From assembly GCA_945787715.1 (NCBI GenBank), contig CALZJE010000008.1:24367-88366 (forward strand): a stretch of DNA of 64,000 bases, read 5' to 3'. A program made the position numbers and the translations under genes. The stretch comes from an uncultured Ectothiorhodospiraceae bacterium. GTDB taxonomy: Bacteria > Pseudomonadota > Gammaproteobacteria > S012-40. Below the pieces are notes generated by a model. That model was not told the DNA's origin. It worked only from the letters and a program-made list of their open reading frames with translations, and made no database searches. Shown here in pieces: positions 2,615 through 60,301 of the stretch; the stretch's first letter is position 1, and every line of letters starts with the position of its first letter.

Positions 2615-2629
2615 CTGCTTACCTATTTT

Positions 2630-3910: not shown

Positions 3911-3925
3911 ATTACAACCCTTCTA

Positions 3926-21389: not shown

Positions 21390-21878
21390 TTAATCCCTGA
21401 CCAGCCGCACAAACCACTCAGCTTGCTTATTGCTTAAATAGCTTTCCCCATGTAGGAAAAATACTATCATGGCATGGTATTTTGATGTGGAGTCTTCAGT
21501 TATGGTCCAGAACCCGGTAGATACTGTATTTGGAAATTTAGATTGATTTATTGCGGGTTGAAAACAACGTTTCTCGGTAATGCTTTCCAGTTCTTTCAGC
21601 GTTGGTAAACGCCAATTTTTTTTGCCGGCAAAGCCTTCATAATTATTAAAATAATTAGCGGCGAGAATTGCTTTTTGCCATTCCATTCGTTTGCTTTGCC
21701 CTATGCACATGGAATTTTCCCAAGTCATTCCATATGCACATTTCATCCAGGTTAGGCTTGTTTTTTCATCAAATATTGTTCCGTTACCGATATCTTTATA
21801 GTTTGTGTTTTCTGGAATACATTCCGCATTCAGGTTGGCTGTAATTAAGCTCAGGGATAAAACAATAAAGCGTATCAT
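21390..21878 (-). CDS. Secreted DUF1566 (Lcl C-terminal domain-like) protein
   Basis: N-terminal signal peptide (MIRFIVLSLSLITANLNA). WRLPTLKELESI motif is characteristic of DUF1566. Confidence 0.55.
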   Translation of the reverse strand: MIRFIVLSLSLITANLNAECIPENTNYKDIGNGTIFDEKTSLTWMKCAYGMTWENSMCIGQSKRMEWQKAILAANYFNNYEGFAGKKNWRLPTLKELESITEKRCFQPAINQSKFPNTVSTGFWTITEDSTSKYHAMIVFFLHGESYLSNKQAEWFVRLVRD

Positions 21879-34143: not shown

Positions 34144-37100
34144 ATGAAACCTGTTGTTTCTCTGTGGTTTTTACTGAGTTTATTTCCACTATTGCTTGGT
34201 GGTTGTAGTGATCTATTGGGATATGGTTCTTCTGGAAAGAAAACTCAAGCTGACATTTCGCTAGATTTTAATGTGAACGAGGCAAAAACGGTTTTTATTC
34301 TCAATGAATTTACACCGCCAGACAATGATTCTAATCCAACATTTGTTTCAAGTCGACTTTATGCTGTAGATCACTCAGATGAAGTTTATCTGGCGCAAGC
34401 AGGCAGTGAGCCCCTTCCTTTAGTATTCACCACAGTGAATCCCGATGCTAACTATCTCTATGCGGCAATCGATTTGAGCCAGCTTAAGAGCAATGGTAGT
34501 GTTTATCGATTAATTGAGAAAAATAATTGTACAGTTTATAAAGTGTCGTTACAGGATAATTCAACTACCTGTGCGTTACAAGGTATTGCAATTGATCAAT
34601 ATGATACTAATCAATGGGAATTGATTGCTTCGAATGTTAAGCCGGTTCAATTTGATGATCACGGTGGTATCTATTTCTTAGGTAGATCTTTCGTTCTGGA
34701 ATGTTTTACAACCCTAAATTCAACCCGTTATAGTAATGGTGATAAAGTATGTGCAGATAATCAGCAAGACATTAAATATGGTGATTATTCCATGATTTAT
34801 CATGTTTCTATAGAAGGTGCTGTAGAAACTATCGCCAAAACGGATGAGACAATCACATCCTTTATTGTTTTCCCAAAAGGGGAGATAGCATATGTTTCGC
34901 TAAACTCCCAAACCGAAACTCTAAATTTAAAAACTAAAAATGGAATAATAGAAGTCAATAAAAAGCTGGGTAGCATTTCGAATTTCTCCATCTTCAACGA
35001 TCAAACAATGTTATGGAATACGACAGAGGTCGTTCATTGGAGTGATTTAGATGTGAGCTTTTCCTCAATTAATACACATCTTGTTCCTGAAGGTGAAGTT
35101 GCCATGGACCACGGACGTGTATATGTGAAAAGTGATGATTTGCTATTTCAACTATTACCACCCCAGGTAAAAGCAAAATCTTCTTTTTTATCGCCAAATA
35201 ATGTACCTGCGCTCGTTTCTCATGGCTATGCCATATATCTCAGAGAATTAGTAGAAAGTGAACTATTGAAACATCATATTGTTCTTTACGATATTGAAAA
35301 AAATAGCGAGACTCTATTGTTGGTCGATAAAAGCTGGCATGTAAATCAGTGGAGTATGGATGGAGGAAGATTAATATTTTCTGCCATAGATCAATTGAAT
35401 AATTCAATTGTTATCGGGGAAGTTTCGATGCTCAATCTGAATAAAACCGGAGACGAAAGTGATTTTCTGAAATCGAGTGTTATCTCTGATATGGGGAAAA
35501 ATCAGTTTTTGGTAGTCGATTTTGAATCGATAGCGAGTGTTGGGGAACCAAAGCTAAATCCAAAGTTACATCCAGAATTAAGTAGTGAAGCTCCTTATAT
35601 CTCTGAAATTCACATGTTGGCTGATAATCGAAATTCTATCAGTATAGATTTTTCACAATCTATGAATCCAACTTCGATTATTGAGAATCTTTCCCTTCAA
35701 GGCTCAACATTGTCAAACATAAACTATCTTCCATTATGGCAGGGGAATACACTTCATCTTATTATCGATACTGATGGTTTTACTAATAATGAGCTCGTGT
35801 TTCAGAATGATGAGTTTAAAGTCGTTAACCAACAACAACTTTTACCGGTCCAAGAACTAATGTTGAGTGTTAACGCTGCAGCACTTGCGGAAAATGGACA
35901 TAGTCTTGGGGGTTATATTGATATTGCCAACTATCCTCTCAATAAAACGTTTACAACAATTTCGGATGGCAAAACATACCTGGCAAATGCCGAGAAATTT
36001 AATCGAGAAATTGGTGATACTCCGTCTTCTTTGGTGGAAGGCGCAGTTTTGGCGCATGCGCCTTGTGTGAGTACTTGCAGCGAAAGTGAATATGATCTTG
36101 GGATTTTAGAAAAAGGAAATATTCGTCATGAGTTTTCTGTTAGTAGTAATAAATTTGAATTGACGCTTTGGAATAAAACAAAATACTCTGCATCTTATAA
36201 TGTTAATGATTCCCATGATCTACAAATTAAGTTTTTAGGCAATAAGATTATTATTTCGATAGGCGAACAAGAGGCAGAACTGGAATTAGCAGAAAACGAT
36301 TCTCGTTATTGGCTAAGTAAATCCAATATATGGCGTCGCTACCGCATCGATATGTATAATGAGAAACTTCAAATTTCTTACTCCATAGATAATAGTAACT
36401 ACACTGTTATTAATGAACTATTGTTAACCAATGTTCCGAATTATTCTACCTCAACCGATGAATATACTTGGCTGTTGAGTTTCTCAGGCGCGATAGATCA
36501 ATGGTCATCTTCTTCATTAACGATCAATAATACATTATTAAATTCTGCTGGTGACCTACTAAGTTTAACTTTCAATACTGATAGTGTTATACCAGGCGAT
36601 ACCGGGGAGGGTGATGAAATAGGATTTGACGATAATATTGCAGGTAGTTATCCCCTCACTGCCGGTCCAGGAAGCCCGGACGATTCTTTTGGGCTTAAAG
36701 GGGGAGTCTATTTTGGTGGTGTCACTGATTGGTTTGGTGATAGTAGTGCAATGACAATTGATGCGAGCGGACGTATTCTACTTGCGGCAAAAGTTATAAA
36801 CACTCAAGCCTTCGATATGGCCGTGTGGCGAATTACTGCAGATGGAGATCTTGATACAATGTTTGGTATTGATGGACTAACCACTCATCATAATGCTGCA
36901 GGTGGCAATAATCATGATGTTGCTGAAGCTGTTGTTGTTGATCCCAATTCAGGAATGATCTATGTAACGGGAGTGAGTTACAATGGTTTCGCTTATGATA
37001 TGACACTCTGGCGATTAACGGATGATGGTAAGTTAGATACTACATTTAATAATCAGGGGTATGTTACCTATACCACCACTGATACAGATAATAGTGGATA

Positions 37101-37896
37101 TGCAATAGCCATTGATTCAAACGGAAGAATAATTATTGCTGGTGAAAGCAGCTCTCGCCCAACGATTTGGGCTTATCTTCCTTCAGGCGACCTTGATACA
37201 TCATTCAATGGTACCGGCGTATTTTCGTATGGCAATACGTCAGGCAGATTGACCAGCGTAATTATTGATAATAACAATATTAGCAATGATAATAATATTA
37301 TTGTTACTGGCAATATGATTATTTCTGTAGGTGATACAGATATGCTGTTATTAAAGGTCTCTCAGCATGGTACTGAGATTTTTGGGAAGTTATATGATGG
37401 GGTGAACAATGGCGTGGAAAACAACGAAGGGAATGCAACCTACGGAGTTTCAGTCCAGTTGGATTACATGCAGAATTATGTCGTATTTGGATACGAATTA
37501 AACCTAACCGGTTATGATCTTGTTATGTGGCGGTTAGATGAGAATGGAATTCCAGATTCTGATTTTGCATCTGGAAGTGCGACTGAAGGTAGAATCCATT
37601 ATGATAGTAGTGACAATGATTTTGCATATTCGATGGCTATTGACAGAGATGGAAAAATTTATTTATTAGCGAGCTCGAGCACTCAGAATACTGGTCTCTA
37701 TGTTATTCGCTATGACATGGACGGTAATTATGATAATACCTTTGATGCTGATGGTGTGCTTTATCGAACGGGTTATAGCGGAAGAATTTTAACTCATATT
37801 GATGATAACAATGAAGAGAAAGTTTATGTAAGCGGGATGCGTGTTCTTGCCGACGGATTTGAAGGTGAGAGAGGTGTCTGGAGGATTAATCCTTAA
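34144..37896 (+). CDS. Giant lipoprotein with a C-terminal delta-60/beta-propeller repeat region
   Basis: Lipobox LLGGC. About 1250 aa. The C-terminal third has repeated WRLxxDGxLDTxF...G motifs typical of delta-60 repeats. Confidence 0.55.
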   Translation: MKPVVSLWFLLSLFPLLLGGCSDLLGYGSSGKKTQADISLDFNVNEAKTVFILNEFTPPDNDSNPTFVSSRLYAVDHSDEVYLAQAGSEPLPLVFTTVNPDANYLYAAIDLSQLKSNGSVYRLIEKNNCTVYKVSLQDNSTTCALQGIAIDQYDTNQWELIASNVKPVQFDDHGGIYFLGRSFVLECFTTLNSTRYSNGDKVCADNQQDIKYGDYSMIYHVSIEGAVETIAKTDETITSFIVFPKGEIAYVSLNSQTETLNLKTKNGIIEVNKKLGSISNFSIFNDQTMLWNTTEVVHWSDLDVSFSSINTHLVPEGEVAMDHGRVYVKSDDLLFQLLPPQVKAKSSFLSPNNVPALVSHGYAIYLRELVESELLKHHIVLYDIEKNSETLLLVDKSWHVNQWSMDGGRLIFSAIDQLNNSIVIGEVSMLNLNKTGDESDFLKSSVISDMGKNQFLVVDFESIASVGEPKLNPKLHPELSSEAPYISEIHMLADNRNSISIDFSQSMNPTSIIENLSLQGSTLSNINYLPLWQGNTLHLIIDTDGFTNNELVFQNDEFKVVNQQQLLPVQELMLSVNAAALAENGHSLGGYIDIANYPLNKTFTTISDGKTYLANAEKFNREIGDTPSSLVEGAVLAHAPCVSTCSESEYDLGILEKGNIRHEFSVSSNKFELTLWNKTKYSASYNVNDSHDLQIKFLGNKIIISIGEQEAELELAENDSRYWLSKSNIWRRYRIDMYNEKLQISYSIDNSNYTVINELLLTNVPNYSTSTDEYTWLLSFSGAIDQWSSSSLTINNTLLNSAGDLLSLTFNTDSVIPGDTGEGDEIGFDDNIAGSYPLTAGPGSPDDSFGLKGGVYFGGVTDWFGDSSAMTIDASGRILLAAKVINTQAFDMAVWRITADGDLDTMFGIDGLTTHHNAAGGNNHDVAEAVVVDPNSGMIYVTGVSYNGFAYDMTLWRLTDDGKLDTTFNNQGYVTYTTTDTDNSGYAIAIDSNGRIIIAGESSSRPTIWAYLPSGDLDTSFNGTGVFSYGNTSGRLTSVIIDNNNISNDNNIIVTGNMIISVGDTDMLLLKVSQHGTEIFGKLYDGVNNGVENNEGNATYGVSVQLDYMQNYVVFGYELNLTGYDLVMWRLDENGIPDSDFASGSATEGRIHYDSSDNDFAYSMAIDRDGKIYLLASSSTQNTGLYVIRYDMDGNYDNTFDADGVLYRTGYSGRILTHIDDNNEEKVYVSGMRVLADGFEGERGVWRINP

Positions 37897-43761: not shown

Positions 43762-43836
43762 GCGGGAATAGCTCAGTGGTAGAGCACAACCTTGCCAAGG
43801 TTGGGGTCGCGAGTTCGAGCCTCGTTTCCCGCTCCA
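43762..43836 (+). tRNA. tRNA-Gly (anticodon GCC)
   Basis: GCGGGAATAGCTCAGTGGTAGAGCACAACCTTGCCAAGGTTG...TCCA. Same position as glyW in E. coli. Confidence 0.9.
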
Positions 43837-43947
43837 AATTCTAGAGCCTCGGCTGTACAGTCGGGGTTTTTTAATTCTTAAAGTATGACTGAATAAATAA
43901 CAAATGATTCTGTTATTGAAGATTCTGTTATTATAGTAACGAGCATT

Positions 43948-44021
43948 GGCTGGGTGGCAGAGTGGTGATGCAGCGGCCTGCAAAGCCGTCAACAGCGGTT
44001 CGATTCCGCTCCTAGCCTCCA
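43948..44021 (+). tRNA. tRNA-Cys (anticodon GCA)
   Basis: 74 nt. Anticodon loop CTGCAAA. Acceptor stem GGCTGGG/CCTAGCC with one G-U pair. Confidence 0.85.
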
Positions 44022-44081
44022 TACAATTTGTATGTTGTGATTCTGACGCTTGGCAGCGTAGAATGTTAAAGCCATACCCTA

Positions 44082-44168
44082 GCCCGGGTGGCGAAATTGG
44101 TAGACGCAAGGGACTTAAAATCCCTCGAGGGAAACCTCGTGCCGGTTCGATTCCGGCCCCGGGCACCA
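44082..44168 (+). tRNA. tRNA-Leu (anticodon TAA), with long variable arm
   Basis: 87 nt. GCCCGGGTGGCGAAATTGGTAGACGCAAGGGACTTAAAATCCC...CACCA. Confidence 0.9.
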
Positions 44169-46413: not shown

Positions 46414-46635
46414 TCGTTATTTGTGCAAAAACAAAGCAAATATTGATTGTGTTCATTATATTCAATCCGTAAAATTGAGTTTCTCTGGCGATATTGCCAT
46501 TTCCTTGAATGGATAAATAATATCTCTAAAATCCTGGAGGATTCAGGATGAGAATACTGAAAATATAAGCTGGAATCCCAATTATTCATCTCTAAACGGC
46601 AATGCCCGAAAGCTGTGTATAAAATAAATATTATT

Positions 46636-49600
46636 ATGAAAATCAAAACAATAAACTTGAGTGCCACACTATTCATCGCATTGATTTCGCTGATAAGCTG
46701 TAGCAGCGAAAACAATAAAGTTCCAGCAAAGAACGACAACCCCGCGTTTTCAAGCAAAAAAAATAACTTTATTCCTGCTGGAATTTCTGTAACAACAAAG
46801 AATGGTGTGGCAGAACTTTCTTGGCCAGAGTTTCCGGATGCAACGGCTTATCAATTATATTGGTCTACCTCTGCTGTAACTGATATTAAAACAGCGGAAA
46901 AAGTTAAACTTAGCTCACCGTTTTATCGTCATGAAAATATTATAAATGATGTTAATTACTATTATACCTATTCCGTAGTGATAAATGGCGTTGAAAGTTT
47001 ATACTCAAATGAAGTTACAATAACAGCGCTTTCTCCTCCAGTGGATGCTCCTACAGACGTGAAAATTATTCCTGGTGATGAGCGATTAACATTAATTTGG
47101 ACAGCGTCTAATAATAGTAATCTACCCAAAACAGATTTACTTTATCATGTGTATTGGAATACATCGGGTAATGTCACAAAAGATGATGAAAAATTAGTAG
47201 CTTCTGCGTCACCTGCTGTGCATCTTGGGCTTAACAATGGGGTGCAATATTACTATCGAATAGCCGCCGTTATCGATAGCCTCGAAGGAGGGTTGTCCAA
47301 TGAAGTTTCTTCTGCTCCACATACCCCGACGCTATTCGCACCTCTCAACGTTGTTGTTACAGCGGGTGTAAGTGAAAATCTGCTTGAGTGGCAAGCCGTC
47401 GAATTTGCAGACTCTTATTCGGTATATTGGAATACTTCAGGTGAAGTAGGATTGTCTGATCAGTTCTTTGAAGTATCAGAGCCAGTATTTACCCAAAAAA
47501 ACTTACGTAATGGTAATACATATTTTTATCGAGTAATGGCCCATAACTCATCTTTCAATAGTTCATTTTCAAGAGAAGTATCAGCCAGGCCAGCGACAGC
47601 GTTACCAGGCACCCCGCAAAGAATTTCCGTGGTTGCTGGCGTAGAGAAAGCTACAATAAATTGGAGTGCGGTGGAGAACGCCATACTTTATAACTTATAT
47701 TGGTATACCAATGGCGCCGTGACCAACGTTAATCCCAATGTGATCTCGCCTTTTAATCATAATAATTTGTCCTCGGATTTGGAAGTCAATTATCGAATAT
47801 CAGCCGTTGTAAATGGTGTTGAAGGTTTACCCTCCGCGCAAGTAACGGTTAAACCATTGCCACAGCCTGCTGCCGCACCTGCTGGAGTTGTTATTACCAA
47901 TTCTCAATCTCAAGGCGTTTTACTTACTTGGGAGCCGGATGAATCAGCAATTGCATATAACCTATATTGGAATACTACAGGAGACGTTACTACTGAAGAT
48001 GAAGTGATAAAAAATGTAACATCTCCTTACGCACATGTTGACGCAGAAAATGGCAAAACATATTTCTACATGATAACTTCCGTCAATAATGAAGGTGAAA
48101 GTTTGCCATCTAATGTCATTAAAGTAACCTTGGCGCCGAATGCCCCAAATGATATTAGGGCAGAAATAAATGAGAACGCTATCGGGCTTCAATGGGATGA
48201 GGTTAGTGGAGCAAAAAATTATCATCTTTATTGGTCGACGTCACCAGATATTGCCATTAAAGAACGTAATCATATTCCTACGGTCAACCCTGGATTTACC
48301 CATATTGACCTTGCTTATGGTCAAAAGTATTACTACATCATCACATCTGAAAACGAAGCGGGAGAGAGTGTAGGTTCCCAAGAGCTTGTTGTTAAGACTG
48401 ATGAAAAAACAATAATACCAGTAGCAGCGCCGACAGATATATCTGTATCTGTAGTGGCTAATGACATAGTGCTGAATTGGTCTGAAGTTCTCTATGCTAC
48501 ATCATATAAAATGTATCTCTCACCAAGTCCTATTATTTCCATTGATGGCTTGGATGGTATTCCAATAGAAGCTACTGAATATGTTCATCAATCGCCTGTT
48601 GTTAATCAACAATATTATTATCGCATTAGTAGTATCGGTTCTTCAGGAGATAGTACTGTTTCGGAGCAAGTGACAGCAGTTATCGAAGATAAATTAATAT
48701 CTGATGCATTGAAATTGATACCTGATCAAACATTCCGAAATTGCATTAGTTCAATGGCTTCTGAACATCAATGGATCAATGCCAGTGAAGTTTCATATTT
48801 GGAATGCAGCTCTGGTGAAGGTGGCTTTATTCAAAGTCTTGATGGTATTCATCAATTCCTATTCGTGACGGAGTTTACCTTTTTTGGGGGCAAAATACAA
48901 AATCTCGATGCTTTTTCGGGACTTTCATTTCCTGCATTAACACGTATCCAATTGGTGAATAATGGCATTGAGAATATTACTGGTCTTGGGGAGATAATAG
49001 CCCCTAATCTTTCTTATTTAATATTAGATCAAAATAAAATATCAGACTTGAATCCACTTTCTTCACTATCAAGTTTAATTGAACTATCTGTGTCTCAAAA
49101 CCAGGTGGTTGATGTCTCTCCAGCATCAAATTTAACAGCGCTTCGGAAGTTGGATTTCCATGCTAATAAGATAGGCGGAGTTAATATAGGCAATCTAAAT
49201 TCTTTGCTTCCATTAACATCGAGCGATACGTTTGAATATTTTAATGTCGATCAGAATATAGGTGTTGATTGTGCGGAATTAGAAATGGTACTTCATTCTC
49301 TTGGTGGCATAAAGATACCTGATTCTCCAATAAACGATATTAACTGTTCGGTAACTGAGAGCTCTCTACCGTTATCGCCAAAAAACATAGTCGCTAGAGC
49401 TGGAGCTGATTTTGTTCAGTTTCTTTGGGATGAATCATTAGGAGCAACTTCCTACACTGTATATTGGTCAAATGAATTCATTGGTTCTAGTTCTGGTTCT
49501 GGTGCTGAGGTGTTTGAGTTTCCTGAAGTTACACATGATTTTGTTCATCAACAACTGCAGAGTGGTTTGCCTCACTATTATCAAATATCAGCGAGTAATG

Positions 49601-50610
49601 CGAATGGTGAAAGTATCCAAACAAGTGAAATTTCTCTGACACCACTGCCTGTGTTGTTATCAGAAATGACAGTGCCAGATCCTGGCTTTCAAGAATGTGT
49701 CAACGATATTATCGATACAGGACCGTGGGTATATGCGCATGAAGTGGAAGTATTAAATTGCAGCCTTAGCAGTAATACATCGATTAATGATCTAACCGGA
49801 ATTCATCTTTTTTCAGGTGTTAGAAGTATCGATTTATCAGGGAAGGGTTTAGAGACTCTGGATGGATTTGACTTTTCTTACTTTCCTGACCTTGTTTCAT
49901 TGAATTTATATGGTAACAGTATTTATAGCGCTGAAGCACTTTCAACATCTATTGTGCCGCAGTTAAAGGATCTCGATATAAGTTCAAATAATCAACTACT
50001 AAGTGTAAAGCCACTAAATAGCCTGACTTCATTAACGTCGCTTAAACTAGTTTGGAATAGCTTAGTTGATTTACGAGAAATACCAGACTTGGTGAATCTT
50101 GAAGACCTCGATATATCTTCAATGTCATTTTTTAGTGGAATTAGTTTAAATATCGATGTGCTGAGTAACTATTCAAAATTGGTGGAATTGGATATGTCAT
50201 TTAATGTCATTACTGATTATTCAAGCTTGTCTGATTTAACCAACTTAGAACGATTGCTTCTTATAAATAATAAAATAGATGATATAAGTTTTATCACAAT
50301 ACCTTCATCGGTTCTTGAACTGAATTTATCTAATAATGAAATTAGTGATGTTACGCCATTATCAGGAATGACTCAGTTACAGTTTCTCAATCTTAATCGG
50401 AATGTTATTGGCAATACACCGGAAGAGAATATTATCAAATTAAACGCACTAACTTCTGCGTCTGAAATCTCCTTGATTGGGAATAGAAGTATGGAATGTA
50501 ATGAGCTTATACAATTAATATCGGATTTAGAAGTTGGTGTAGTAAAATTTAGTGATGGAAGTAGAGTTGTACCTGAACAAAACCTAGATTGCACTATTTA
50601 TAATCCCTAA
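46636..50610 (+). CDS. Giant lipoprotein: about 9 FN3-like repeats followed by internalin-type leucine-rich repeats
   Basis: Lipobox LISCS. Start taken at the ATG at 46636. Repeating modules of about 95 aa have a YxLYWxTS core. C-terminal half has 22-aa LRRs (LSYLILDQNKISDLNPLSSLSSLIELSVSQNQVVDVSP...). Confidence 0.65.
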   Translation: MKIKTINLSATLFIALISLISCSSENNKVPAKNDNPAFSSKKNNFIPAGISVTTKNGVAELSWPEFPDATAYQLYWSTSAVTDIKTAEKVKLSSPFYRHENIINDVNYYYTYSVVINGVESLYSNEVTITALSPPVDAPTDVKIIPGDERLTLIWTASNNSNLPKTDLLYHVYWNTSGNVTKDDEKLVASASPAVHLGLNNGVQYYYRIAAVIDSLEGGLSNEVSSAPHTPTLFAPLNVVVTAGVSENLLEWQAVEFADSYSVYWNTSGEVGLSDQFFEVSEPVFTQKNLRNGNTYFYRVMAHNSSFNSSFSREVSARPATALPGTPQRISVVAGVEKATINWSAVENAILYNLYWYTNGAVTNVNPNVISPFNHNNLSSDLEVNYRISAVVNGVEGLPSAQVTVKPLPQPAAAPAGVVITNSQSQGVLLTWEPDESAIAYNLYWNTTGDVTTEDEVIKNVTSPYAHVDAENGKTYFYMITSVNNEGESLPSNVIKVTLAPNAPNDIRAEINENAIGLQWDEVSGAKNYHLYWSTSPDIAIKERNHIPTVNPGFTHIDLAYGQKYYYIITSENEAGESVGSQELVVKTDEKTIIPVAAPTDISVSVVANDIVLNWSEVLYATSYKMYLSPSPIISIDGLDGIPIEATEYVHQSPVVNQQYYYRISSIGSSGDSTVSEQVTAVIEDKLISDALKLIPDQTFRNCISSMASEHQWINASEVSYLECSSGEGGFIQSLDGIHQFLFVTEFTFFGGKIQNLDAFSGLSFPALTRIQLVNNGIENITGLGEIIAPNLSYLILDQNKISDLNPLSSLSSLIELSVSQNQVVDVSPASNLTALRKLDFHANKIGGVNIGNLNSLLPLTSSDTFEYFNVDQNIGVDCAELEMVLHSLGGIKIPDSPINDINCSVTESSLPLSPKNIVARAGADFVQFLWDESLGATSYTVYWSNEFIGSSSGSGAEVFEFPEVTHDFVHQQLQSGLPHYYQISASNANGESIQTSEISLTPLPVLLSEMTVPDPGFQECVNDIIDTGPWVYAHEVEVLNCSLSSNTSINDLTGIHLFSGVRSIDLSGKGLETLDGFDFSYFPDLVSLNLYGNSIYSAEALSTSIVPQLKDLDISSNNQLLSVKPLNSLTSLTSLKLVWNSLVDLREIPDLVNLEDLDISSMSFFSGISLNIDVLSNYSKLVELDMSFNVITDYSSLSDLTNLERLLLINNKIDDISFITIPSSVLELNLSNNEISDVTPLSGMTQLQFLNLNRNVIGNTPEENIIKLNALTSASEISLIGNRSMECNELIQLISDLEVGVVKFSDGSRVVPEQNLDCTIYNP

Positions 50611-50683: not shown

Positions 50684-52315
50684 TTAGAATGCCAACTCCA
50701 TTCTAGCGCCAAAGGAAAGATTCTGGTTTGTTGTATAGCGTTGATCAAGAATAGTTTCATACATGATGAATGCGTTGAATCCGTGTGGTAATACTGCGGA
50801 TATACCAATGTTTGTTCTGAAATAATCTAAGTCAGGCCTATCAGTTTGAAAACTAAAACTAGTTGCATTAGCATCATCTACAAAGCTGCCTTTGATCGAA
50901 TCTTTTCCTGTACTAAATTCATGTACCCATGAAATATCGATTTGTGGAATCAAAACTCCCCATGTTTGACTAATAGGGTAGCTTAATTGAGAGCCAAGTT
51001 CACCGAGTGTTGATGCTAGATTTCGTTTATCGATAACAAGGTTTAATTCGTTTGCACCGGTTTCTTTATAACTTTCAATCGTTGAGTTCAAATGGTCAAC
51101 TTTACCGGTGAGGGTAACACTAAAGCCATTTTTCTGGTGGATGACATAACCTGCGCCAAGACTTATCGCATTTGATGAGCTTTTTGTATCACCTGTTGCT
51201 CTTTCACTGATACTGTTACCTGCTGCGTCGTAATTAATATTTCTTCGTGATGAATAGTCGTTGTTTCCGCGGGTGATTATGATGTCAACATATAAACTGT
51301 CAGCCAAATAATAAGTTCCGTATGCTGTTAAACTTAGTCCTTGTGCGTCAAGCGATCCACCGTTATCAGATATATCCAGGTCAGTATTTGCATAGCCTGT
51401 TGCTACACCTAAAATCATTTGGTGTGTTAATCGATAATCAGCACCAATTGTTAAACCTTGAGAGTCATAATTAAAACCGTCTTCTAACAATGTGTTCGAC
51501 CTACTACCTTCGCCAATATTGCCACTGGCAAATATTCCCAGCTTATTGCTCAATAATCCAAATGGTTCAGTGCCATCGCTGTTTTCACTATTATTGAAAA
51601 ATAGATGCGATTTATTCTTTTGGGATTGGTGCTTTTCGAGGAAGTTGAATGATAAATCACCCAAAGAGATTCCTCGACTTCCTTGGCGTAGCGCTGACAA
51701 GCGGCTACCAATATTTCTCAATTGATTTTGTGCGAATGTATTTCCCACTTTATTTTGTGTAGCGACTTCTTCTGGCGCAATTTCTCGCATGGCCTTTTCA
51801 ACTTCCTCTGGAGTTGCTTGACTTAATTCATTACAACGGATTGAGAAAGATTCATTGCTGGTTGATTGAGATGCACATATATCTTCAAGTACAGATGCAA
51901 TACTTTTTTCGATAGGGATCGATGTTTCTGTTGGAAGAGCGATAATTGAGCCAACAGTGATACTTATCACCGCATTAACTATTTCATTTTGATCGCCCGT
52001 AACAGAGTACGTAATTTGATCTACTCCTGTGTAATCTGTGTTTGGCGTATAAATAATGGAAAGTTGCTCCTCACTAACACTCGCTGTTCCATTGGAAGGA
52101 GGGGACGAAATTGAAATAGTAAGCGGACCGTCATTATCGATAGCTGAGATGCTACTACTTAAATCAATCGTAATGTTATTGTTTTGATTAGTATTCACAA
52201 ATATATTTGATGCAGTTAGTGCAAAACAATTATTAGCGATAAAAAAGAAGATCATCAGAAAAAAGAAGTTTCTAGCGGTTATTAAATGAGCAATTCGGTT
52301 TTTGTTGTGTAGCAT
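50684..52315 (-). CDS. Autotransporter (type Va) outer-membrane protein with a short passenger
   Basis: Signal peptide. C-terminal beta-barrel translocator domain ending in an aromatic residue (...GARMELAF) with alternating hydrophobic beta-strands. Confidence 0.7.
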   Translation of the reverse strand: MLHNKNRIAHLITARNFFFLMIFFFIANNCFALTASNIFVNTNQNNNITIDLSSSISAIDNDGPLTISISSPPSNGTASVSEEQLSIIYTPNTDYTGVDQITYSVTGDQNEIVNAVISITVGSIIALPTETSIPIEKSIASVLEDICASQSTSNESFSIRCNELSQATPEEVEKAMREIAPEEVATQNKVGNTFAQNQLRNIGSRLSALRQGSRGISLGDLSFNFLEKHQSQKNKSHLFFNNSENSDGTEPFGLLSNKLGIFASGNIGEGSRSNTLLEDGFNYDSQGLTIGADYRLTHQMILGVATGYANTDLDISDNGGSLDAQGLSLTAYGTYYLADSLYVDIIITRGNNDYSSRRNINYDAAGNSISERATGDTKSSSNAISLGAGYVIHQKNGFSVTLTGKVDHLNSTIESYKETGANELNLVIDKRNLASTLGELGSQLSYPISQTWGVLIPQIDISWVHEFSTGKDSIKGSFVDDANATSFSFQTDRPDLDYFRTNIGISAVLPHGFNAFIMYETILDQRYTTNQNLSFGARMELAF

Positions 52316-55730: not shown

Positions 55731-57239
55731 TTAACCGATAAGTTTATTAATCCGCGGAATCAATTCTTCAATTTTTATGGGCTTCTCAATAAAGTCTGCA
55801 GCGCCTATTCCAAGTACATGCTCTCTGGTCGTAACCTTGTTATCTCCCGTAATAATGATCACCGGAACAGGCTCTGTTTTAGGGTTTTGTTTTATACGTT
55901 CAAGAATTTTTATTCCGTCAATATCAGGTAGCAAAACATCTAATATTAATAAATCTGGTAACGGACCTTGTGTTAACATCGTGAGTGCAGTATATCCATC
56001 AGGGACATCAAAAACTTCAACATCTAGGTCTTCTAATACACGTCTCACATATTGAACTATCGCTTGATCATCATCCACAACCATGATTTTTGGACGTATT
56101 TCAGGAAATTTAGCAATCATAGTCGTTTTTACCTCTGGTTCCGATTCTATGATTAAATTACCATTGTGTGCCAGCAATATCTCATTGCAGTGAGGTATTC
56201 CGATACCTGAGCCTTTTTCACCAGCAGTTCCTAGGGTAGATGTTTTTGTTTCCAGTGAAATTAAGTCAGTTATTTTTTCTTTGGGAATTCCCACTCCTGT
56301 ATCTTCAACAGCAACTGTAGATCCATCAGGAGAATAAATGCGTATTATTGAATTTTTATGGCTAAATTTAATGGCGTTACTTAAAAAGTTTTGTATGAGT
56401 TGATTTATCAGAACTTTATCTGAGTAGATGCGTGATTTTTTATTGACTTCATTTTTAATTTCAATTTCTTTTTCTTCTGCCATGAAGCTAAGTCGGTTAA
56501 CGACTTCATTAACGATGTAATAAAGATTGTTGAATGTACGTATTGGTTTAATGAATCCTTGTTGCAAGCGACTGAGGTCTAATAAATCTTCAACCATATT
56601 AAGTAATTGTTTTGATGAATTGAGAGCCAATGTAGTAAGTTTATCTTTTTCTTCCATTGGAATTGAAATATTCTCTTCTTTATTTGTTGCTAATGTCAAT
56701 GCACCAATAACAGCACCTAGAGGGTTTCTTAAATCGTGAGATACTAACGATACGTATTTGTCCTTTAATGCGGTTGCCATTTCGGCTTGTTCTTTTGCTA
56801 CTCTGAGCTGAGTTTCTTGTTGAAATCTGTGGTATGCATAGTTAGATTGGCGAATTAGTAGTTTGGGATATGTTTCATCTTTAAAGAGAAAGTTTTGCGC
56901 GCCCAATGCAATCGCTTCCATTCCCAGCTTCTCATCATTAATACCAGTTAACACAACTATTGCGATGTCATCACATTTTTTTCGGAAGTTTGTAATCGTC
57001 TCAAGTCCGGATGAATCCGATAGATTAAGATCTAGAAGTACGATATCAAAACTATTTTTTTTCACAGGGTTTGATAATGTGGAAAACGCTTCTTTAAGGC
57101 TTACTACATGTGTAATTTTCGCTTGGCCAAATTCTACGGGTGCACTGGAGAAAACAGAATTAACAATCATTGCGGATGATTGGCTGTCTTCTACTAATAA
57201 TACGTTTTTGACGGAAAAATAGGCAGTATCTGTTAACAT
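55731..57239 (-). CDS. Hybrid sensor histidine kinase with REC-HisKA-HATPase-REC architecture (no TM)
   Basis: N-terminal receiver (LLVEDS...LDLNLSDSSG), H-box LVSHDLRNPLGAV, G-boxes (DTGVGIP, GSGIGI), and a C-terminal receiver (MVVDDD...LLILDVLLPDIDG). Confidence 0.85.
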   Translation of the reverse strand: MLTDTAYFSVKNVLLVEDSQSSAMIVNSVFSSAPVEFGQAKITHVVSLKEAFSTLSNPVKKNSFDIVLLDLNLSDSSGLETITNFRKKCDDIAIVVLTGINDEKLGMEAIALGAQNFLFKDETYPKLLIRQSNYAYHRFQQETQLRVAKEQAEMATALKDKYVSLVSHDLRNPLGAVIGALTLATNKEENISIPMEEKDKLTTLALNSSKQLLNMVEDLLDLSRLQQGFIKPIRTFNNLYYIVNEVVNRLSFMAEEKEIEIKNEVNKKSRIYSDKVLINQLIQNFLSNAIKFSHKNSIIRIYSPDGSTVAVEDTGVGIPKEKITDLISLETKTSTLGTAGEKGSGIGIPHCNEILLAHNGNLIIESEPEVKTTMIAKFPEIRPKIMVVDDDQAIVQYVRRVLEDLDVEVFDVPDGYTALTMLTQGPLPDLLILDVLLPDIDGIKILERIKQNPKTEPVPVIIITGDNKVTTREHVLGIGAADFIEKPIKIEELIPRINKLIG

Positions 57240-57464: not shown

Positions 57465-58547
57465 TTAATAAACCAGCTCAGCGGTAAACATAAAAATGTC
57501 ACCCTCTAGGCCGCTGTTTTGGCTATAGCGTTCATACTTCACTTGAAATTGTGATCGACCTAGATATCGTGGTGTATAACCCAACTTAAGCCCATATAAG
57601 CGGGATGTAAAAGCCTTTAAGGAGCTGGATGATGTTAAATATTGCTCCATTCCAGTATAAGACGATTTCAAGAAGTCTGCTGAGTTTTGCTCATAAAATC
57701 GTATTTCGCCGCGGAGTTGCAAGCGTTTGCTTAATTTTTGATAGGCTTTTACCTCAATAGTATTTGAACTTAGCGCCCAATCATCTTGATAAAAACGATA
57801 ACCAAAATGTAAGGCGGTTTGTGTTGCTAGCCAATGAGCGTAACGAATTCCTACTGCTTGTCGAATCCGGTTGGAGGGTAAAAACTCATCAAAGATTAAA
57901 TTGTTTTCCAGCACAATCTGTCGATTCCCAGTGCTCAAATAACCTTTATTATTCTGTAGTGTATAACCCAGCTGCATGATTGAAGTAGGTGATAACACCT
58001 GAGTCAATGCCAGCGAATAATTGTCTACGTCCTTGGACTTTTTATTTTCCATGAATCGACCATTAACGGTATCGAAATTATGTGCATATCCCATACTTAA
58101 TGTTGTATTGCGTCGATTGAAATCTTTGGACAAACCAATGGATGGCGAAAAGGATTCATAATCCTTTTCTATACTTTGCAGGTAACCTGCGTTAAAGGTC
58201 CAGTCTCCTTTAATGTGTGAAATACCTGCCACATATTCCTGGCGGGTATCAACCGATGATTCCAGATCACCAGTGAATTGTGAGGCGCCTGAAATGGAAT
58301 CAATGCCGTCATAGTTTGTTTCAACCCGGTCTACAGTGAACTTGGCGTTAACTGTAGTCTGAAGGGATAAAATATTTTCGTAAGAGAGAATTGGTTTAGT
58401 AATAGTTAAGCCAGGCGTGAGGCTGTAATAGTGGGTCATTAAGCCGACAGTGCTGTCTGCGAACGCAGTCCATTGCATACTTAAGAGCAGTATTACAATA
58501 CCTGTTATGGAATAGCGTCGTCGACGAAATTTTGATAAAACAAACAT
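57465..58547 (-). CDS. DUF3570-like predicted outer-membrane beta-barrel protein
   Basis: Signal peptide (start taken at M10 of the track ORF). About 360 aa with alternating amphipathic strands. Family assigned from size, context and memory. Confidence 0.5.
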   Translation of the reverse strand: MFVLSKFRRRRYSITGIVILLLSMQWTAFADSTVGLMTHYYSLTPGLTITKPILSYENILSLQTTVNAKFTVDRVETNYDGIDSISGASQFTGDLESSVDTRQEYVAGISHIKGDWTFNAGYLQSIEKDYESFSPSIGLSKDFNRRNTTLSMGYAHNFDTVNGRFMENKKSKDVDNYSLALTQVLSPTSIMQLGYTLQNNKGYLSTGNRQIVLENNLIFDEFLPSNRIRQAVGIRYAHWLATQTALHFGYRFYQDDWALSSNTIEVKAYQKLSKRLQLRGEIRFYEQNSADFLKSSYTGMEQYLTSSSSLKAFTSRLYGLKLGYTPRYLGRSQFQVKYERYSQNSGLEGDIFMFTAELVY

Positions 58548-58551
58548 AGAT

Positions 58552-58755
58552 CTAGTTGCAGCCACAACCACCACCGCCTACGCCAAACCCACCTGTAGAG
58601 CCTTCCAGAGAATTCAGAAAGTGTTCTCGCGCGCCAATTTCAACTTTTTCCATATCAAACTGCATTTCCGGTTTGGAAAGGGTTTCGCGCTGAAAAGGTT
58701 GAACAGTTGTGCATGCGCTGATAAATAGTGTTAGAAATAGAATGATTACTTTCAT
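58552..58755 (-). CDS. DUF4266-like small lipoprotein with C-terminal GGGGCGCN tail
   Basis: Lipobox LFISAC. 67 aa from the ATG at 58755, which overlaps the TlpA stop as ATGA. Gly-rich CGC C-terminus. Confidence 0.55.
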   Translation of the reverse strand: MKVIILFLTLFISACTTVQPFQRETLSKPEMQFDMEKVEIGAREHFLNSLEGSTGGFGVGGGGCGCN

Positions 58756-59294
58756 TTTTTCTCTTGCAAAAGGCTTGAAACCTCTTGGCTCCATTTAATG
58801 GTGTCTTTTTCAGAATTAAAACCGTAGTGTTTGTAACGCACAATTCCGTTCTGATCCAGGATATATGATGAAGGCATGGCGACTGCACCAAAGCTCGAAA
58901 CAACATTTGTTTGTGGATCAAATAACACACGGCTTCTAATTTTATATTTTTCTAAAAACTGATTGGCATTTTCTATGTCACGGTCAATATTGATTGCTAA
59001 TACGACTAAGTTATCAAATTTATCCTGCAGTTGATCTAACATGGGCAGTTCTTTGCGGCAAGGAGTGCACCAGCTCGCCCAAAAATTTATGAAAACAATC
59101 TTGTCTTTAAAGTCGTTGAGTTGGTAACTATTATTATCTGCACCCTCAAGTTTAAAAAAAGGTGCTGGCTGGCCCACCGCAGCTGCGAGAGTGACGGTAG
59201 GCCAGGCCAGACAAAGTATCAGAAGTGTTTTCGTTAAGCGGGAGGAGCGAAATATCTTCTGGGGAGGGGAAGTAATTGTCATATTTACATCCAT
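58752..59294 (-). CDS. TlpA/ResA-like periplasmic thiol:disulfide oxidoreductase
   Basis: Signal peptide. FINFWASWCTPCRKELP thioredoxin CxxC motif. Confidence 0.8.
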   Translation of the reverse strand: MDVNMTITSPPQKIFRSSRLTKTLLILCLAWPTVTLAAAVGQPAPFFKLEGADNNSYQLNDFKDKIVFINFWASWCTPCRKELPMLDQLQDKFDNLVVLAINIDRDIENANQFLEKYKIRSRVLFDPQTNVVSSFGAVAMPSSYILDQNGIVRYKHYGFNSEKDTIKWSQEVSSLLQEKK

Positions 59295-59296
59295 TA

Positions 59297-60277
59297 TTAA
59301 TTATTTTTGGCGCCTTCAGCGATCCATTGTCGTATCGCTTTATAGTCCGCATCGTCTGTAGATCGCCAGGATGCGCCACCGCCATGTTGGGAGCCATACA
59401 TTGGCGTTGCCAACACCAAGCTGGCATCAGGATTGTTCAGATTAACGATATCTTGAATGCCTTTTTCTGAATTTTCATCTTTCTCAAAAGCGGATAAATC
59501 CAGGCCGCCACCATAAGCATATTTGGTTCCTTTGGGGTATTCAACCCAGGGTCTTGCTTTTTCTGGCAAATGACATGATTTGCAACGATTCTTCAATACC
59601 GGCATAACATGCTTTTTGAAACTCACACCGGTTTCCGGATAACTTGATAAGGTCGAAAAACCACTTGCCAACAAAGCCCCTCGGCTGTTCAATGGTGCGT
59701 GATGCATACCACAACTCATGCGAGAGGTTGTTGAGCTGCTACCACCAACACCGGGTATTGTCATCATCGCTGTAATCAAATCATCATTTTTCACCCAAGC
59801 TTTATATCGCCATGTGCTAGAACTGGCTCTATTCTCTGCTTCACTTTTATCCGGATTCCAGGCTTGAGGGTCCGAAGCAATTTTACTGTAAGTGAAAAAA
59901 TTACCCGAATCATTGGTGGTCATGCTGATTACATTGCCTTGCACATCTTCTAGAATAATTTCAGCACCGACCAATGGTTCACGAGCTGCTCTGTCTTTGT
60001 ACAATGTACCAGCCATGGTAAACACAGATTCATGAGCTTTTCCGGTTTCTGAATGACAGATTCCACAGTCTTCACCAGTCATATGAAATTCATTTCCGGC
60101 AGTTTCATCTGCTTCGGCTTCATCGCTCAATTCACCATTATCCTTGCCAGCCACATGACCACTTGGTGCTTCAGCCCACTGCATTCCTTTGGGGGTGAAT
60201 ACTCTATCTGTGGCACTGAGCTGACCAAAAAATAAAATACTGCTGATTAAAAATGTTAATTTTGTGCTGAGTCGCAT
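59297..60277 (-). CDS. Secreted dihaem c-type cytochrome-like protein
   Basis: Signal peptide. Two CxxCH motifs (CGICH, CKSCH). Third atypical CGMHH site. Central beta-rich region (GAEIILEDVQGNVISMTTNDSGNFF). Confidence 0.55.
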   Translation of the reverse strand: MRLSTKLTFLISSILFFGQLSATDRVFTPKGMQWAEAPSGHVAGKDNGELSDEAEADETAGNEFHMTGEDCGICHSETGKAHESVFTMAGTLYKDRAAREPLVGAEIILEDVQGNVISMTTNDSGNFFTYSKIASDPQAWNPDKSEAENRASSSTWRYKAWVKNDDLITAMMTIPGVGGSSSTTSRMSCGMHHAPLNSRGALLASGFSTLSSYPETGVSFKKHVMPVLKNRCKSCHLPEKARPWVEYPKGTKYAYGGGLDLSAFEKDENSEKGIQDIVNLNNPDASLVLATPMYGSQHGGGASWRSTDDADYKAIRQWIAEGAKNN

Positions 60278-60301
60278 TATCTTTCTCCCGATGTTCTTTT
60301 T

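What the first reader, a model, noticed from the sequence alone, without database searches (positions are those of the whole stretch)
46636..50610. 1.3-kDa-per-residue-scale surface lipoprotein: nine FN3-like modules fused to internalin-type LRRs
The protein is 1324 aa. It has a lipobox, then about 9 tandem modules of about 95 aa with a YxLYWxTS core (divergent at the DNA level, so ancient duplications), then about 20 leucine-rich repeats of the 22-aa internalin class. This eukaryote-like adhesion architecture is typical of host-interacting bacteria.
Basis: seen in the sequence. Interest (0 to 1): 0.5.

Follow-up and report, generated by a model that had tools for sequence, protein, structure and literature searches.

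The report
Lipoprotein with FN3 stalk, LRR heads
This is a real gene for a large, lipid-anchored envelope protein of an uncultured gammaproteobacterium, with a stalk of fibronectin-type-III domains carrying two internalin-like leucine-rich-repeat binding domains; its domains are ordinary, but it belongs to a small unnamed protein family and nothing shows that it binds a host.

Summary
The ORF (46636-50610, +, 1324 aa) is real and under purifying selection. It sits at the same locus in a related metagenomic genome.

There is a lipobox (LISC, Cys22), the FN3 domains pass Pfam fn3, and the 22-residue internalin-class LRRs pass Pfam LRR_4. The best solved-structure matches are Listeria InlA, InlB, InlC2 and InlH.

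The layout was misread. There are 8 FN3 modules, not 9. The LRRs form two separate capped domains of about 6 and 10 repeats, with the eighth FN3 between them: FN3x7, LRR_A, FN3, LRR_B.

Each LRR domain has an internalin-like N-cap and a short helical C-cap, with two invariant cysteines in each cap. No Pfam or NCBIfam model covers these cysteine-bearing caps.

The unit [FN3 + Cys-capped LRR] recurs in a small, unnamed, metagenome-only family. Some members are lipoproteins made of four such units.

Close relatives differ in FN3 number and LRR number. LRR_B is a far more divergent segment than the rest of the gene, which fits a mosaic origin.

The most likely function is an envelope-anchored binding protein (adhesin or receptor) with an unknown ligand. 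Host interaction is unsupported. I rate it a new variant of a known kind, of moderate to low interest.

The parts
46636..46701 (+). Signal peptide with lipobox (MKIKTINLSATLFIALISLISC). Cys22 is the predicted lipidated N-terminus, and residue +2 is Ser.
   Evidence: Read directly from the sequence. The ortholog P0123 has a 22-residue signal peptide ending with the same LISC.
46702..46764 (+). Short low-complexity linker (res 23-43) between the lipid anchor and the first FN3.
   Evidence: Lies outside all FN3 HMM envelopes. It is the least conserved N-terminal stretch against the ortholog, at 57% identity.
46765..48687 (+). Seven tandem FN3 modules, the stalk: res 44-132, 136-229, 233-320, 324-408, 412-500, 501-589 and 596-684.
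   Evidence: Pfam fn3 at 3.3e-20. Own FN3 HMM envelopes. Pairwise identity 21-36%. FN7 is modelled as a 7-stranded sandwich with pLDDT about 90 or more. dN/dS is 0.09-0.39 against the ortholog.
48688..49350 (+). LRR_A (res 685-905). It has an internalin-like helical N-cap with Cys703 and Cys724, six LRRs (five starts found by pattern at 744, 768, 792, 814 and 836; the sixth, at about 866, set by eye and supported by model strand 868-870), and a helical C-cap with Cys879 and Cys904.
49369..49647 (+). FN3 module 8 (res 912-1004), between the two LRR domains. With LRR_B it forms a second [FN3 + capped LRR] unit.
   Evidence: FN3 HMM. AF2 beta-sandwich. 84% identical to the ortholog with dN/dS 0.10.
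49651..50607 (+). LRR_B (res 1006-1324). It has an N-cap with Cys1021 and Cys1042, ten LRRs, and a C-cap with Cys1288 and Cys1319. It is the distal and most divergent domain.
   Evidence: AF2 pLDDT 87.2, pTM 0.82. Foldseek best hits are Roco LRR, InlF and InlA at 1e-12 to 1e-11. InlA scores 1.6e-37 by sequence. It is 55% identical to the ortholog. Synonymous divergence jumps at about res 1050: pS 0.66-1.0 against 0.24-0.65 upstream.
50608..50610 (+). Stop codon.

Best explanation
The gene encodes a 142-kDa acidic envelope lipoprotein that acts as a modular binding protein (adhesin or receptor).

Shown:
- A Sec/lipobox signal peptide.
- Seven FN3 beta-sandwich modules in tandem.
- Two [FN3 + internalin-type LRR solenoid] units after them.
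- In each LRR domain, an internalin-like helical N-cap and a short helical C-cap, each carrying a pair of family-invariant cysteines.

Inferred:
- After lipidation at Cys22, the Ser at +2 sends the protein to the outer membrane through the Lol pathway.
- The FN3 array is a spacer stalk of roughly 25-30 nm that holds the two LRR domains away from the membrane.
- The cysteine pairs form disulfides that clamp both caps, which fits an oxidising periplasmic or extracellular location.
- The concave beta-sheet faces of LRR_A and LRR_B bind ligands, most likely proteins, as in internalins. The ligands are unknown.
- Lineages retune the protein by gaining or losing FN3 and LRR repeats and by replacing the distal LRR_B segment through recombination.

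For: Lipobox: present in the window protein, its ortholog P0123, and family members P0018, P0024, P0053, P0278, P0286 and P0373 by pattern. P0268 and P0293 have an LNAC box read by eye.

Cysteines: the protein has 9 Cys, the lipobox Cys plus exactly 4 per LRR domain. Family members at about 28% identity keep the same four per domain and have almost no other Cys in the mature part.

Real, constrained gene: dN/dS is 0.09-0.39 in every domain. Synteny with a relative is conserved while the neighbouring genes are 80-95% identical.

Modular change among close relatives: 8 versus 10 FN3 and 10 versus 13 LRRs in LRR_B. A third allele occurs in the same metagenome. There is a sharp rise in both pN and pS from about res 1050.

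Concave-face x positions are the most variable class in all six pairwise comparisons. dN/dS is 0.60 there, against 0.19 for the convex side and 0.04 for the core, in the best-powered pair.

The [FN3 + capped LRR] unit is reused one to four times in other predicted lipoproteins.
Against: - Surface exposure is not shown. A Lol-sorted lipoprotein faces the periplasm by default, and no Slam, T2SS or other surface-export gene is linked to the locus.
- One clade of the family (P0003-P0017) has an ordinary signal peptide rather than a lipobox, so lipid anchoring is not universal in the family.
- Disulfides are inferred from conservation only.
- The concave-face signal is weak. Fisher p ranges from 0.003 to 0.34, the comparisons are not independent, no class reaches dN/dS above 1, and the window-versus-ortholog LRR_A comparison shows no excess.
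- The high divergence of LRR_B could partly reflect alignment of non-orthologous repeats.
- No ligand, partner gene or expression data exist.
Confidence: 0.55

Rival explanations
1. One reading: a eukaryote-like adhesin or invasin of a host-associated bacterium. The LRR heads would bind a eukaryotic cell-surface receptor, as InlA binds E-cadherin and InlB binds Met.
For: The LRR domains are closest in sequence and fold to InlA, InlB, InlC2 and InlH. Internalin-family proteins mediate attachment to eukaryotic cells, also in the Gram-negative P. gingivalis, where InlJ binds Candida Als3 (PMC5915736). The window also encodes an Lcl_C-domain protein and an autotransporter.
Against: There is no evidence of host association. 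All relatives are unnamed metagenome or MAG proteins. The window carries biosynthetic and motility genes typical of a free-living gammaproteobacterium. It holds no effector-secretion genes. NCBIfam internalin models score far below their cut-offs, 98.6 against 1600 bits. The same 22-residue LRR class also occurs in the cytoplasmic Roco protein of Chlorobium and in human SDS22, so the repeat type does not imply a host target.
Confidence: 0.15
2. A periplasm-facing outer-membrane lipoprotein that is not surface exposed. The long FN3 array and LRR domains would serve as an envelope scaffold, spacer or protein-docking platform inside the periplasm.
For: A lipobox with Ser at +2 predicts Lol delivery to the inner leaflet of the outer membrane (sequence; the rule comes from E. 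coli). No surface-export machinery is linked. Conserved Cys pairs are equally compatible with the periplasm.
Against: A stalk of 7-13 FN3 modules would be far longer than the width of a periplasm (my inference from typical FN3 dimensions). Repeat-number variation, a mosaic distal domain and a variable concave face among close relatives are typical of exposed, interaction-driven proteins rather than internal scaffolds.
Confidence: 0.15
3. A released or secreted binding protein, exported for example by type II secretion with the lipid anchor transient or absent. It would capture polymers or particles, or mediate cell-cell and biofilm cohesion, rather than bind a specific receptor.
For: Part of the family lacks a lipobox and has a plain signal peptide (P0003-P0017). 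The same Cys-capped LRR module is fused to a subtilase-like protein (P0391) and to other large extracellular-type proteins (P0369, P0307). Bacterial FN3 domains are common in secreted polymer-degrading enzymes (general knowledge).
Against: The window protein and its ortholog both keep a canonical lipobox. No catalytic or carbohydrate-binding domain is present. No T2SS genes are nearby.
Confidence: 0.1

Closest known systems
Listeria monocytogenes internalins (InlA, InlB, InlC2, InlH, InlF)
   Same: - 22-residue LRR of the LxxLxLxxNxIxDIxPLxxLxx type.
- Helical N-cap beginning with the (I/F)PD..(F/L) motif.
- Signal-peptide-bearing proteins that bind ligands on the concave LRR face (established for InlA and InlB).
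   Different: - No Ig-like inter-repeat domain is fused to the LRR. A short helical C-cap with two conserved Cys takes its place, and the N-cap has two more conserved Cys.
- There is no LPXTG or GW anchor. The protein is a Gram-negative lipoprotein.
- A long FN3 stalk lies N-terminal to the LRRs, and there are two LRR domains per protein.
- NCBIfam internalin models score 73-99 bits against cut-offs of 1050-1600.
Unnamed metagenomic lipoproteins built of [FN3 + Cys-capped LRR] units (P0002/P0123, P0003-P0018, P0024, P0053, P0268, P0278, P0286, P0293, P0373)
   Same: - Same FN3 type with the Y.(I/L)YW(N/S)T core.
- Same N-cap motif (F/I)xDxx(L/F)xxC(I/V)...W...C.
- Same C-cap motif N..(L/I)xCxE...L...L...(V)D...NC.
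- The four Cys are conserved in each LRR domain, and most members have a lipobox.
- P0123 is the syntenic ortholog.
   Different: - Module arithmetic varies: 13xFN3+1 LRR, 12+1, 5+1, 3+1, or 4x[FN3+LRR]. The window protein is 7xFN3 + 2x[FN3+LRR], seen only in it, its ortholog (9+2x) and perhaps the 5'-truncated third allele L008.
- None is named or studied.
- There is no shared gene neighbourhood.
Porphyromonas gingivalis InlJ (internalin-family surface protein of a Gram-negative)
   Same: A Gram-negative envelope protein with internalin-type LRRs that acts as an adhesin. It is needed for biofilm formation and binds Candida Als3 (PMC5915736). This shows that such LRR proteins can act at a Gram-negative surface.
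   Different: It was not compared by sequence here. No FN3 stalk or Cys-capped modules are described for it in that paper. It comes from a host-associated Bacteroidota organism.
Eukaryotic extracellular LRR proteins with disulfide-bonded LRRNT/LRRCT caps, some with FN3 (e.g. LRFN/SALM, Slit, VLR)
   Different: - There is no Pfam LRRNT or LRRCT match even at E up to 1.
- Each cap has 2 Cys rather than the usual 4.
- The N-cap is the helical internalin type.
- The repeats are the bacterial 22-residue class.
- FN3 precedes the LRR rather than following it.
Streptococcal LRR surface proteins (LrrG of GBS; Slr of S. pyogenes, the latter from memory)
   Same: Surface proteins with 22-residue internalin-like LRRs. 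LrrG has 15 full LRRs and attaches to epithelial cells (PMC5900788). From memory, Slr is lipoprotein-anchored.
   Different: They come from Gram-positive hosts, have no FN3 stalk, have no Cys caps described, and were not compared by sequence here.

Membership tests
Fibronectin type III domain (Pfam PF00041) | Score above the Pfam gathering threshold, and a seven-stranded beta-sandwich of about 90 residues. | tested here: met
   72.5 bits against a cut-off of 25, E 3.3e-20, 4 stretches. An HMM built from the modules finds 8 copies. AF2 gives beta-sandwiches for FN7 and FN8 at pLDDT about 90.
Leucine-rich repeat, bacterial 22-residue (internalin/LRR_4) class | Tandem LxxLxLxxNxIxDIxxLxxLxx repeats above Pfam thresholds, folding into a curved solenoid. 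| tested here: met
   LRR_4 87 bits (cut-off 27), LRR_8 52.4 bits (cut-off 27), LRR_9 46.8 bits (cut-off 30.5). AF2 solenoids with 6 and 10 repeat strands. Best PDB hits are internalins and the Roco LRR.
Listeria internalin family | Helical N-terminal cap preceding the LRRs. | tested here: met
   Cap helices at res 698-711 and 1016-1028 in the models. Alignments to InlB, InlH and InlC2 span about 190 residues of the LRR_A domain. The IPD..F motif is visible in the sequence.
Listeria internalin family | Ig-like inter-repeat (IR) domain fused directly to the C-terminal end of the LRR. | tested here: not met
   The LRRs end in a short helix with two Cys (res 879-904 and 1288-1319). LRR_B ends the protein. 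LRR_A is followed by its own cap and then an FN3.
Listeria internalin family | Anchoring by LPXTG sortase signal or GW modules, or small secreted forms; protein reaches the NCBIfam internalin model cut-offs. | tested here: not met
   No LPXTG or GW is present; there is an N-terminal lipobox instead. Scores are internalin_A 98.6 against 1600, InlH/InlC2 72.8 against 1050, and inl_like_NEAT_1 91.3 against 1275 bits.
Bacterial lipoprotein (lipobox) | Positively charged N-region, hydrophobic core, [LVI][ASTVI][GAS]C lipobox within about the first 35 residues. | tested here: met
   MKIK / TINLSATLFIALIS / LISC, with Cys22. The pattern is conserved in the ortholog P0123.
Bacterial lipoprotein (lipobox) | Actual diacylglyceryl modification, signal peptidase II cleavage, and final location (outer membrane or surface). 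| not testable with these tools
   This needs biochemistry. Outer-membrane sorting is inferred only from Ser at +2.
Eukaryotic-type LRRNT/LRRCT-capped extracellular LRR | Pfam LRRNT (PF01462) or LRRCT (PF01463) cysteine-cluster caps. | tested here: not met
   No such family is listed even at E up to 1. Each cap has 2 Cys, and the N-cap is the helical internalin type.
Unnamed [FN3 + Cys-capped LRR] module family (defined here) | An FN3 immediately before an LRR domain whose N-cap has the CxxxxW...C pair and whose C-cap has the N..xC.E...L ... NC pair, giving four conserved Cys per domain. | tested here: met
   Both LRR domains of the window protein fit. All four Cys columns are invariant in A1 and A3; in A2 three are invariant and the fourth nearly so, because one row was cut before that Cys. 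The motif and domain map agrees with P0123, P0010, P0018, P0024, P0053, P0268, P0278, P0286, P0293 and P0373.
Unnamed [FN3 + Cys-capped LRR] module family (defined here) | The Cys pairs form intradomain disulfides. | not testable with these tools
This is inferred from invariance only.

The most novel reading that the evidence does not exclude
The [FN3 + disulfide-capped internalin-like LRR] unit defines an undescribed family of modular envelope receptors in uncultured Proteobacteria. Their specificity would be diversified within populations by gain and loss of repeats and by recombinational replacement of the distal LRR domain. That would be a bacterial counterpart of variable LRR receptors, driven by interactions with partners, prey, predators or phages.
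Probability: 0.2. Interest if true: 0.6.

Novelty: new variant of a known kind. Interest (0 to 1): 0.35.

Why it matters
If the reading is right, internalin-type LRR binding domains are not confined to Gram-positive pathogens. They would also be used, in a distinct disulfide-capped form mounted on FN3 stalks and lipid anchors, by uncultured environmental Gammaproteobacteria and relatives.

The family gives a compact, self-capped and probably disulfide-stabilised LRR module that evolves by module shuffling. That could interest people who study bacterial adhesion and envelope architecture, or who engineer LRR scaffolds.

As it stands, this is a well-supported domain annotation of an uncharacterised family. 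It does not identify a mechanism or a ligand.

Tried and rejected
With the single protein it returned only two irrelevant FN3 hits, from an archaeon and an Acidobacteriota MAG, and not the source genome. The organism could therefore not be named beyond 'uncultured gammaproteobacterium', which rests on UvrC relatives and the uvrC-pgsA-tRNA Gly/Cys/Leu arrangement.
- A word-indexed homolog search with LRR_A alone returned nothing, so that search was wasted.
- The afdb50 fold library was unavailable.
- Cluster look-ups gave no informative source name: only P0024 carries a generic JGI domain label, and no organism is named.
- Literature searches for the accession codes found nothing. Searches for FN3+LRR lipoproteins or Cys-capped bacterial LRRs found nothing specific.
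- The exhaustive profile search with the C-cap profile was dominated by long generic LRR arrays. Only hits whose match extended into the cap region were informative.
- No conserved gene neighbourhood was found in five family loci.
- There are no DNA-level tandem repeats, and no other LRR or FN3 coding segments (silent cassettes) in the window. A local cassette-switching mechanism is therefore rejected.
- A genomic-island origin is rejected. GC content matches the flanks, synteny is conserved in a relative, and the Pfam scans of the window's larger ORFs turned up no integrase or transposase.
- Promoter and terminator scans were no better than shuffled controls.


Full report
**Observation**

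The ORF listing gives one long ORF at 46615/46636..50610 on the + strand. From ATG 46636 it is 1324 aa. It starts MKIKTINLSATLFIALISLISC, a lysine-rich N-region followed by a hydrophobic core and an L-I-S-C lipobox with Cys at residue 22. The syntenic ortholog P0123 has a different 22-residue signal peptide that ends in the same LISC, which supports both the start codon and the lipobox.

Pfam confirms both repeat types. fn3 scores 72.5 bits against a cut-off of 25 (E 3.3e-20). LRR_4 scores 87 bits against 27 (E 6.5e-25). LRR_8, LRR_9 and a sub-threshold LRR_EndoS match also appear.

An HMM built from the modules finds exactly eight envelopes, at res 44-132, 136-229, 233-320, 324-408, 412-500, 501-589, 596-684 and 912-1004. 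The modules are 21-36% identical to each other. Tandem Repeats Finder sees nothing at the DNA level except a 26-bp hexamer run.

**Corrected architecture**

The LRRs are not one array of about 20 after the FN3s. There are two separately capped LRR domains with the eighth FN3 between them.

- LRR_A spans res 685-905.
- LRR_B spans res 1006-1324.

AlphaFold2 models were built on family alignments:

| Segment | pLDDT | pTM | LRR strands |
|---|---|---|---|
| FN7+LRR_A | 87.8 | 0.77 | cap strand plus 6 |
| FN8+LRR_B | 87.2 | 0.82 | cap strand plus 10 |

Each model shows a seven-stranded sandwich joined to a solenoid. Each solenoid begins with a cap helix and ends with a C-terminal helix.

The repeats are the 22-residue internalin class.

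- By sequence, the best solved relatives are InlA (1.6e-37 for LRR_B, 4.6e-39 for LRR_A) and the Chlorobium Roco LRR (1.2e-43 for LRR_A).

**Cysteine caps**

The protein has nine cysteines: Cys22 of the lipobox, and 703, 724, 879, 904, 1021, 1042, 1288 and 1319. That is exactly two in each N-cap and two in each C-cap.

In alignments with family members that share only about 28% identity, these four Cys columns are conserved: all four are invariant in A1 and A3, and in A2 three are invariant and the fourth nearly so because one row was cut short. Most family members have almost no other cysteine in the mature part.

The N-cap aligns with the internalin cap (IPDxxF...). The C-cap (N..xC.E...L...L ... 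NC) replaces the Ig-like inter-repeat domain of internalins. Pfam LRRNT and LRRCT do not match, even at E up to 1. I infer structural disulfides and hence an oxidising compartment. I could not measure distances because model coordinates were not exposed, and the last Cys of each cap lies in a low-confidence tail.

**Family**

The word-indexed search of 5.8 billion clusters found 122 FN3-containing hits. Only about 20 of them share the FN3+LRR architecture:

- the ortholog P0002/P0123;
- a clade of 1400-1480-aa proteins with 13 FN3 and one LRR domain (P0003-P0017, with a plain signal peptide);
- P0018 (12 FN3, lipobox), P0024 (5 FN3, lipobox) and P0053 (3 FN3, lipobox).

An exhaustive HMMER search with a profile of the last LRRs plus the C-cap was mostly swamped by generic long LRR arrays. 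The hits that extended into the cap region revealed further members:

- P0268, P0278, P0286 and P0293 (1214-1265 aa) are predicted lipoproteins built of four consecutive [FN3 + Cys-capped LRR] units.
- P0373 has a cadherin-like region, one FN3 and one capped LRR.
- P0391 is a subtilase-like protein with at least three capped LRR domains.

The evolutionary unit is therefore FN3 plus a capped LRR. The window protein is 7 FN3 followed by two such units.

None of these proteins carries an informative name in any source; only P0024 has a generic JGI domain label. All come from metagenomes or MAGs. Five family loci share no neighbouring genes.

**Genomic setting and organism**

The window protein is identical to a protein from a 103,910-bp NCBI contig (P0121). 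It differs by one residue (K89E) from the copy in MAG GCA_945787115.1.

- Upstream lie acs, ung, uvrC, pgsA, tRNA-Gly/Cys/Leu and mnmC.
- Downstream, convergent, lies an autotransporter with a Big_9/cadherin-like passenger.
- The rest of the window holds leuCDB, asd, fimV, gltX, fliK, prkA-yeaH-spoVR and similar genes.

GC content is even across the locus. The closest named UvrC relatives are 'Gammaproteobacteria bacterium' at about 67-69% identity. This is a core chromosomal region of an uncultured gammaproteobacterium, not an island. Nothing in it indicates host association.

**Evolution among close relatives**

A relative carries the gene at the same place between mnmC and the autotransporter (contigs ERZ27251221 and Ga0316204_10001040; UvrC 96% identical).

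- Neighbouring genes are 80-95% identical, with dS of 0.26-0.56.
- The FN3 and LRR_A parts are 61-86% identical, with dN/dS of 0.09-0.39.
- LRR_B is only 55% identical, with dS of about 2.

The ortholog has two extra FN3 modules (10 against 8) and three extra LRRs in LRR_B.

A 50-codon sliding window shows a step at about residue 1050. pS rises from 0.24-0.65 to 0.66-1.0, and pN rises from 0.06-0.20 to 0.24-0.49. Synonymous sites jump as well, so this looks like replacement of the LRR_B repeats by a more distant sequence (a mosaic gene) rather than only faster amino-acid change. Some inflation from aligning non-orthologous repeats cannot be excluded.

A third allele, 5'-truncated on a 3.3-kb contig, occurs in the same metagenome as the ortholog. 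It is 71-86% identical to the others outside LRR_B.

Across the three alleles, the predicted concave-face x positions of the LRRs are the most variable class in all six comparisons.

- For the best-powered pair, dN/dS is 0.60 for the concave face, 0.19 for the convex side and 0.04 for the core.
- No class exceeds 1.
- Fisher p values range from 0.003 to 0.34.
- One comparison shows no excess.

I treat this as suggestive only. There are no other LRR or FN3 segments in the window that could serve as donor cassettes.

**Mechanism**

Shown: the signal peptide and lipobox pattern, eight FN3 folds, two internalin-type LRR solenoids with distinct Cys-bearing caps, purifying selection, and modular variation.

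Inferred:
- lipidation and Lol sorting to the outer membrane (Ser at +2);
- a role for the acidic FN3 array (mature protein 142 kDa, pI 4.35) as a stalk;
- disulfide-clamped caps;
- ligand binding on the concave faces of two different heads (the two FN3+LRR units are about 28% identical to each other);
- adaptive retuning of the distal head.

Not shown: surface exposure, the ligand, and any link to a host. The main rivals are a host-cell adhesin or invasin, a periplasm-facing scaffold, and a secreted binding protein. All three remain possible. They are separated mainly by localisation and ligand experiments.

**Comparison with known systems**

The protein works like an internalin-type LRR adhesin. 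The LRR class and the N-cap are shared with Listeria internalins. It is not a member of that family: it lacks the IR domain, lacks LPXTG or GW anchoring, and scores 73-99 bits against NCBIfam cut-offs of 1050-1600.

P. gingivalis InlJ shows that internalin-family proteins can act as adhesins on a Gram-negative surface (PMC5915736). Streptococcal LrrG is another 22-residue LRR surface protein (PMC5900788).

**Verdict**

The finding is real and its domain annotation is right. The layout needed correcting, and the host-interaction reading is unsupported. It is a new variant of a known kind: a member of a small, unnamed family of [FN3 + Cys-capped internalin-like LRR] envelope proteins with signs of modular and mosaic evolution. 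Interest is moderate to low (0.35).

Noticed in passing
window 34144-37896 (+): A 1250-aa predicted lipoprotein (signal peptide ending LLGGC). Its C-terminal third matches the beta-propeller repeats DUF5122 and SBBP, and the N-terminal 800 residues match no Pfam family. It is a second giant envelope protein 9 kb upstream of the finding.
   Followed up: partly
window 29579-31999 (+): An 806-aa ORF with a lipobox-like LLISC near the N-terminus. Its only Pfam hit is a sub-threshold Pentapeptide_4 match, so it is essentially unannotated.
   Followed up: no
window 50684-52315 (-): An autotransporter (beta-domain at 2.9e-52) with a small Big_9/cadherin-like passenger. It is convergent with the finding and separated from it by 73 bp. 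The same pairing is kept in the relative L002.
   Followed up: partly
window 55731-57239 (-) versus L002: A 502-aa hybrid histidine kinase/response regulator lies between the fatty-acid desaturase and DUF3570 genes in the window and in L001. It is absent from the same position in the relative L002, so this is an indel between close genomes.
   Followed up: no
window 57465-61762 (-): A conserved cluster of DUF3570, DUF4266, a thioredoxin-like protein, an unannotated 326-aa secreted protein, and a FG-GAP repeat protein with a lipobox (LIVAC). The order is the same in the relative.
   Followed up: no
window 21390-21878 (-): A small (162 aa) secreted protein consisting of an Lcl_C domain, the C-terminal domain of the Legionella collagen-like protein (6e-30). 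The same Pfam family also appears in several FN3-rich hits: P0020, P0035 and P0096.
   Followed up: no
window 43762-44168 (+): A tRNA-Gly(GCC), tRNA-Cys(GCA), tRNA-Leu(TAA) cluster directly after uvrC-pgsA. From memory this is the arrangement known from enterobacteria, which is consistent with a gammaproteobacterial chromosome. A 137-aa ORF called on the opposite strand here in L001 is almost certainly spurious.
   Followed up: partly
L008 1-3301: The third allele of the gene sits on a 3.3-kb contig. Its reading frame is closed by stop codons about 45 codons upstream of the first in-frame start, inside what should be an FN3 module. This could be a truncated gene, a pseudogene or an assembly chimera.
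   Followed up: partly
L011 1-3312: Directly upstream of family member P0053, on the same strand, lies a 1103-aa gene with no Pfam record. It may be another large envelope protein paired with the FN3-LRR gene.
   Followed up: no
window 1112-5848 (-): A complete prkA - DUF444 (yeaH-like) - spoVR operon.
   Followed up: no
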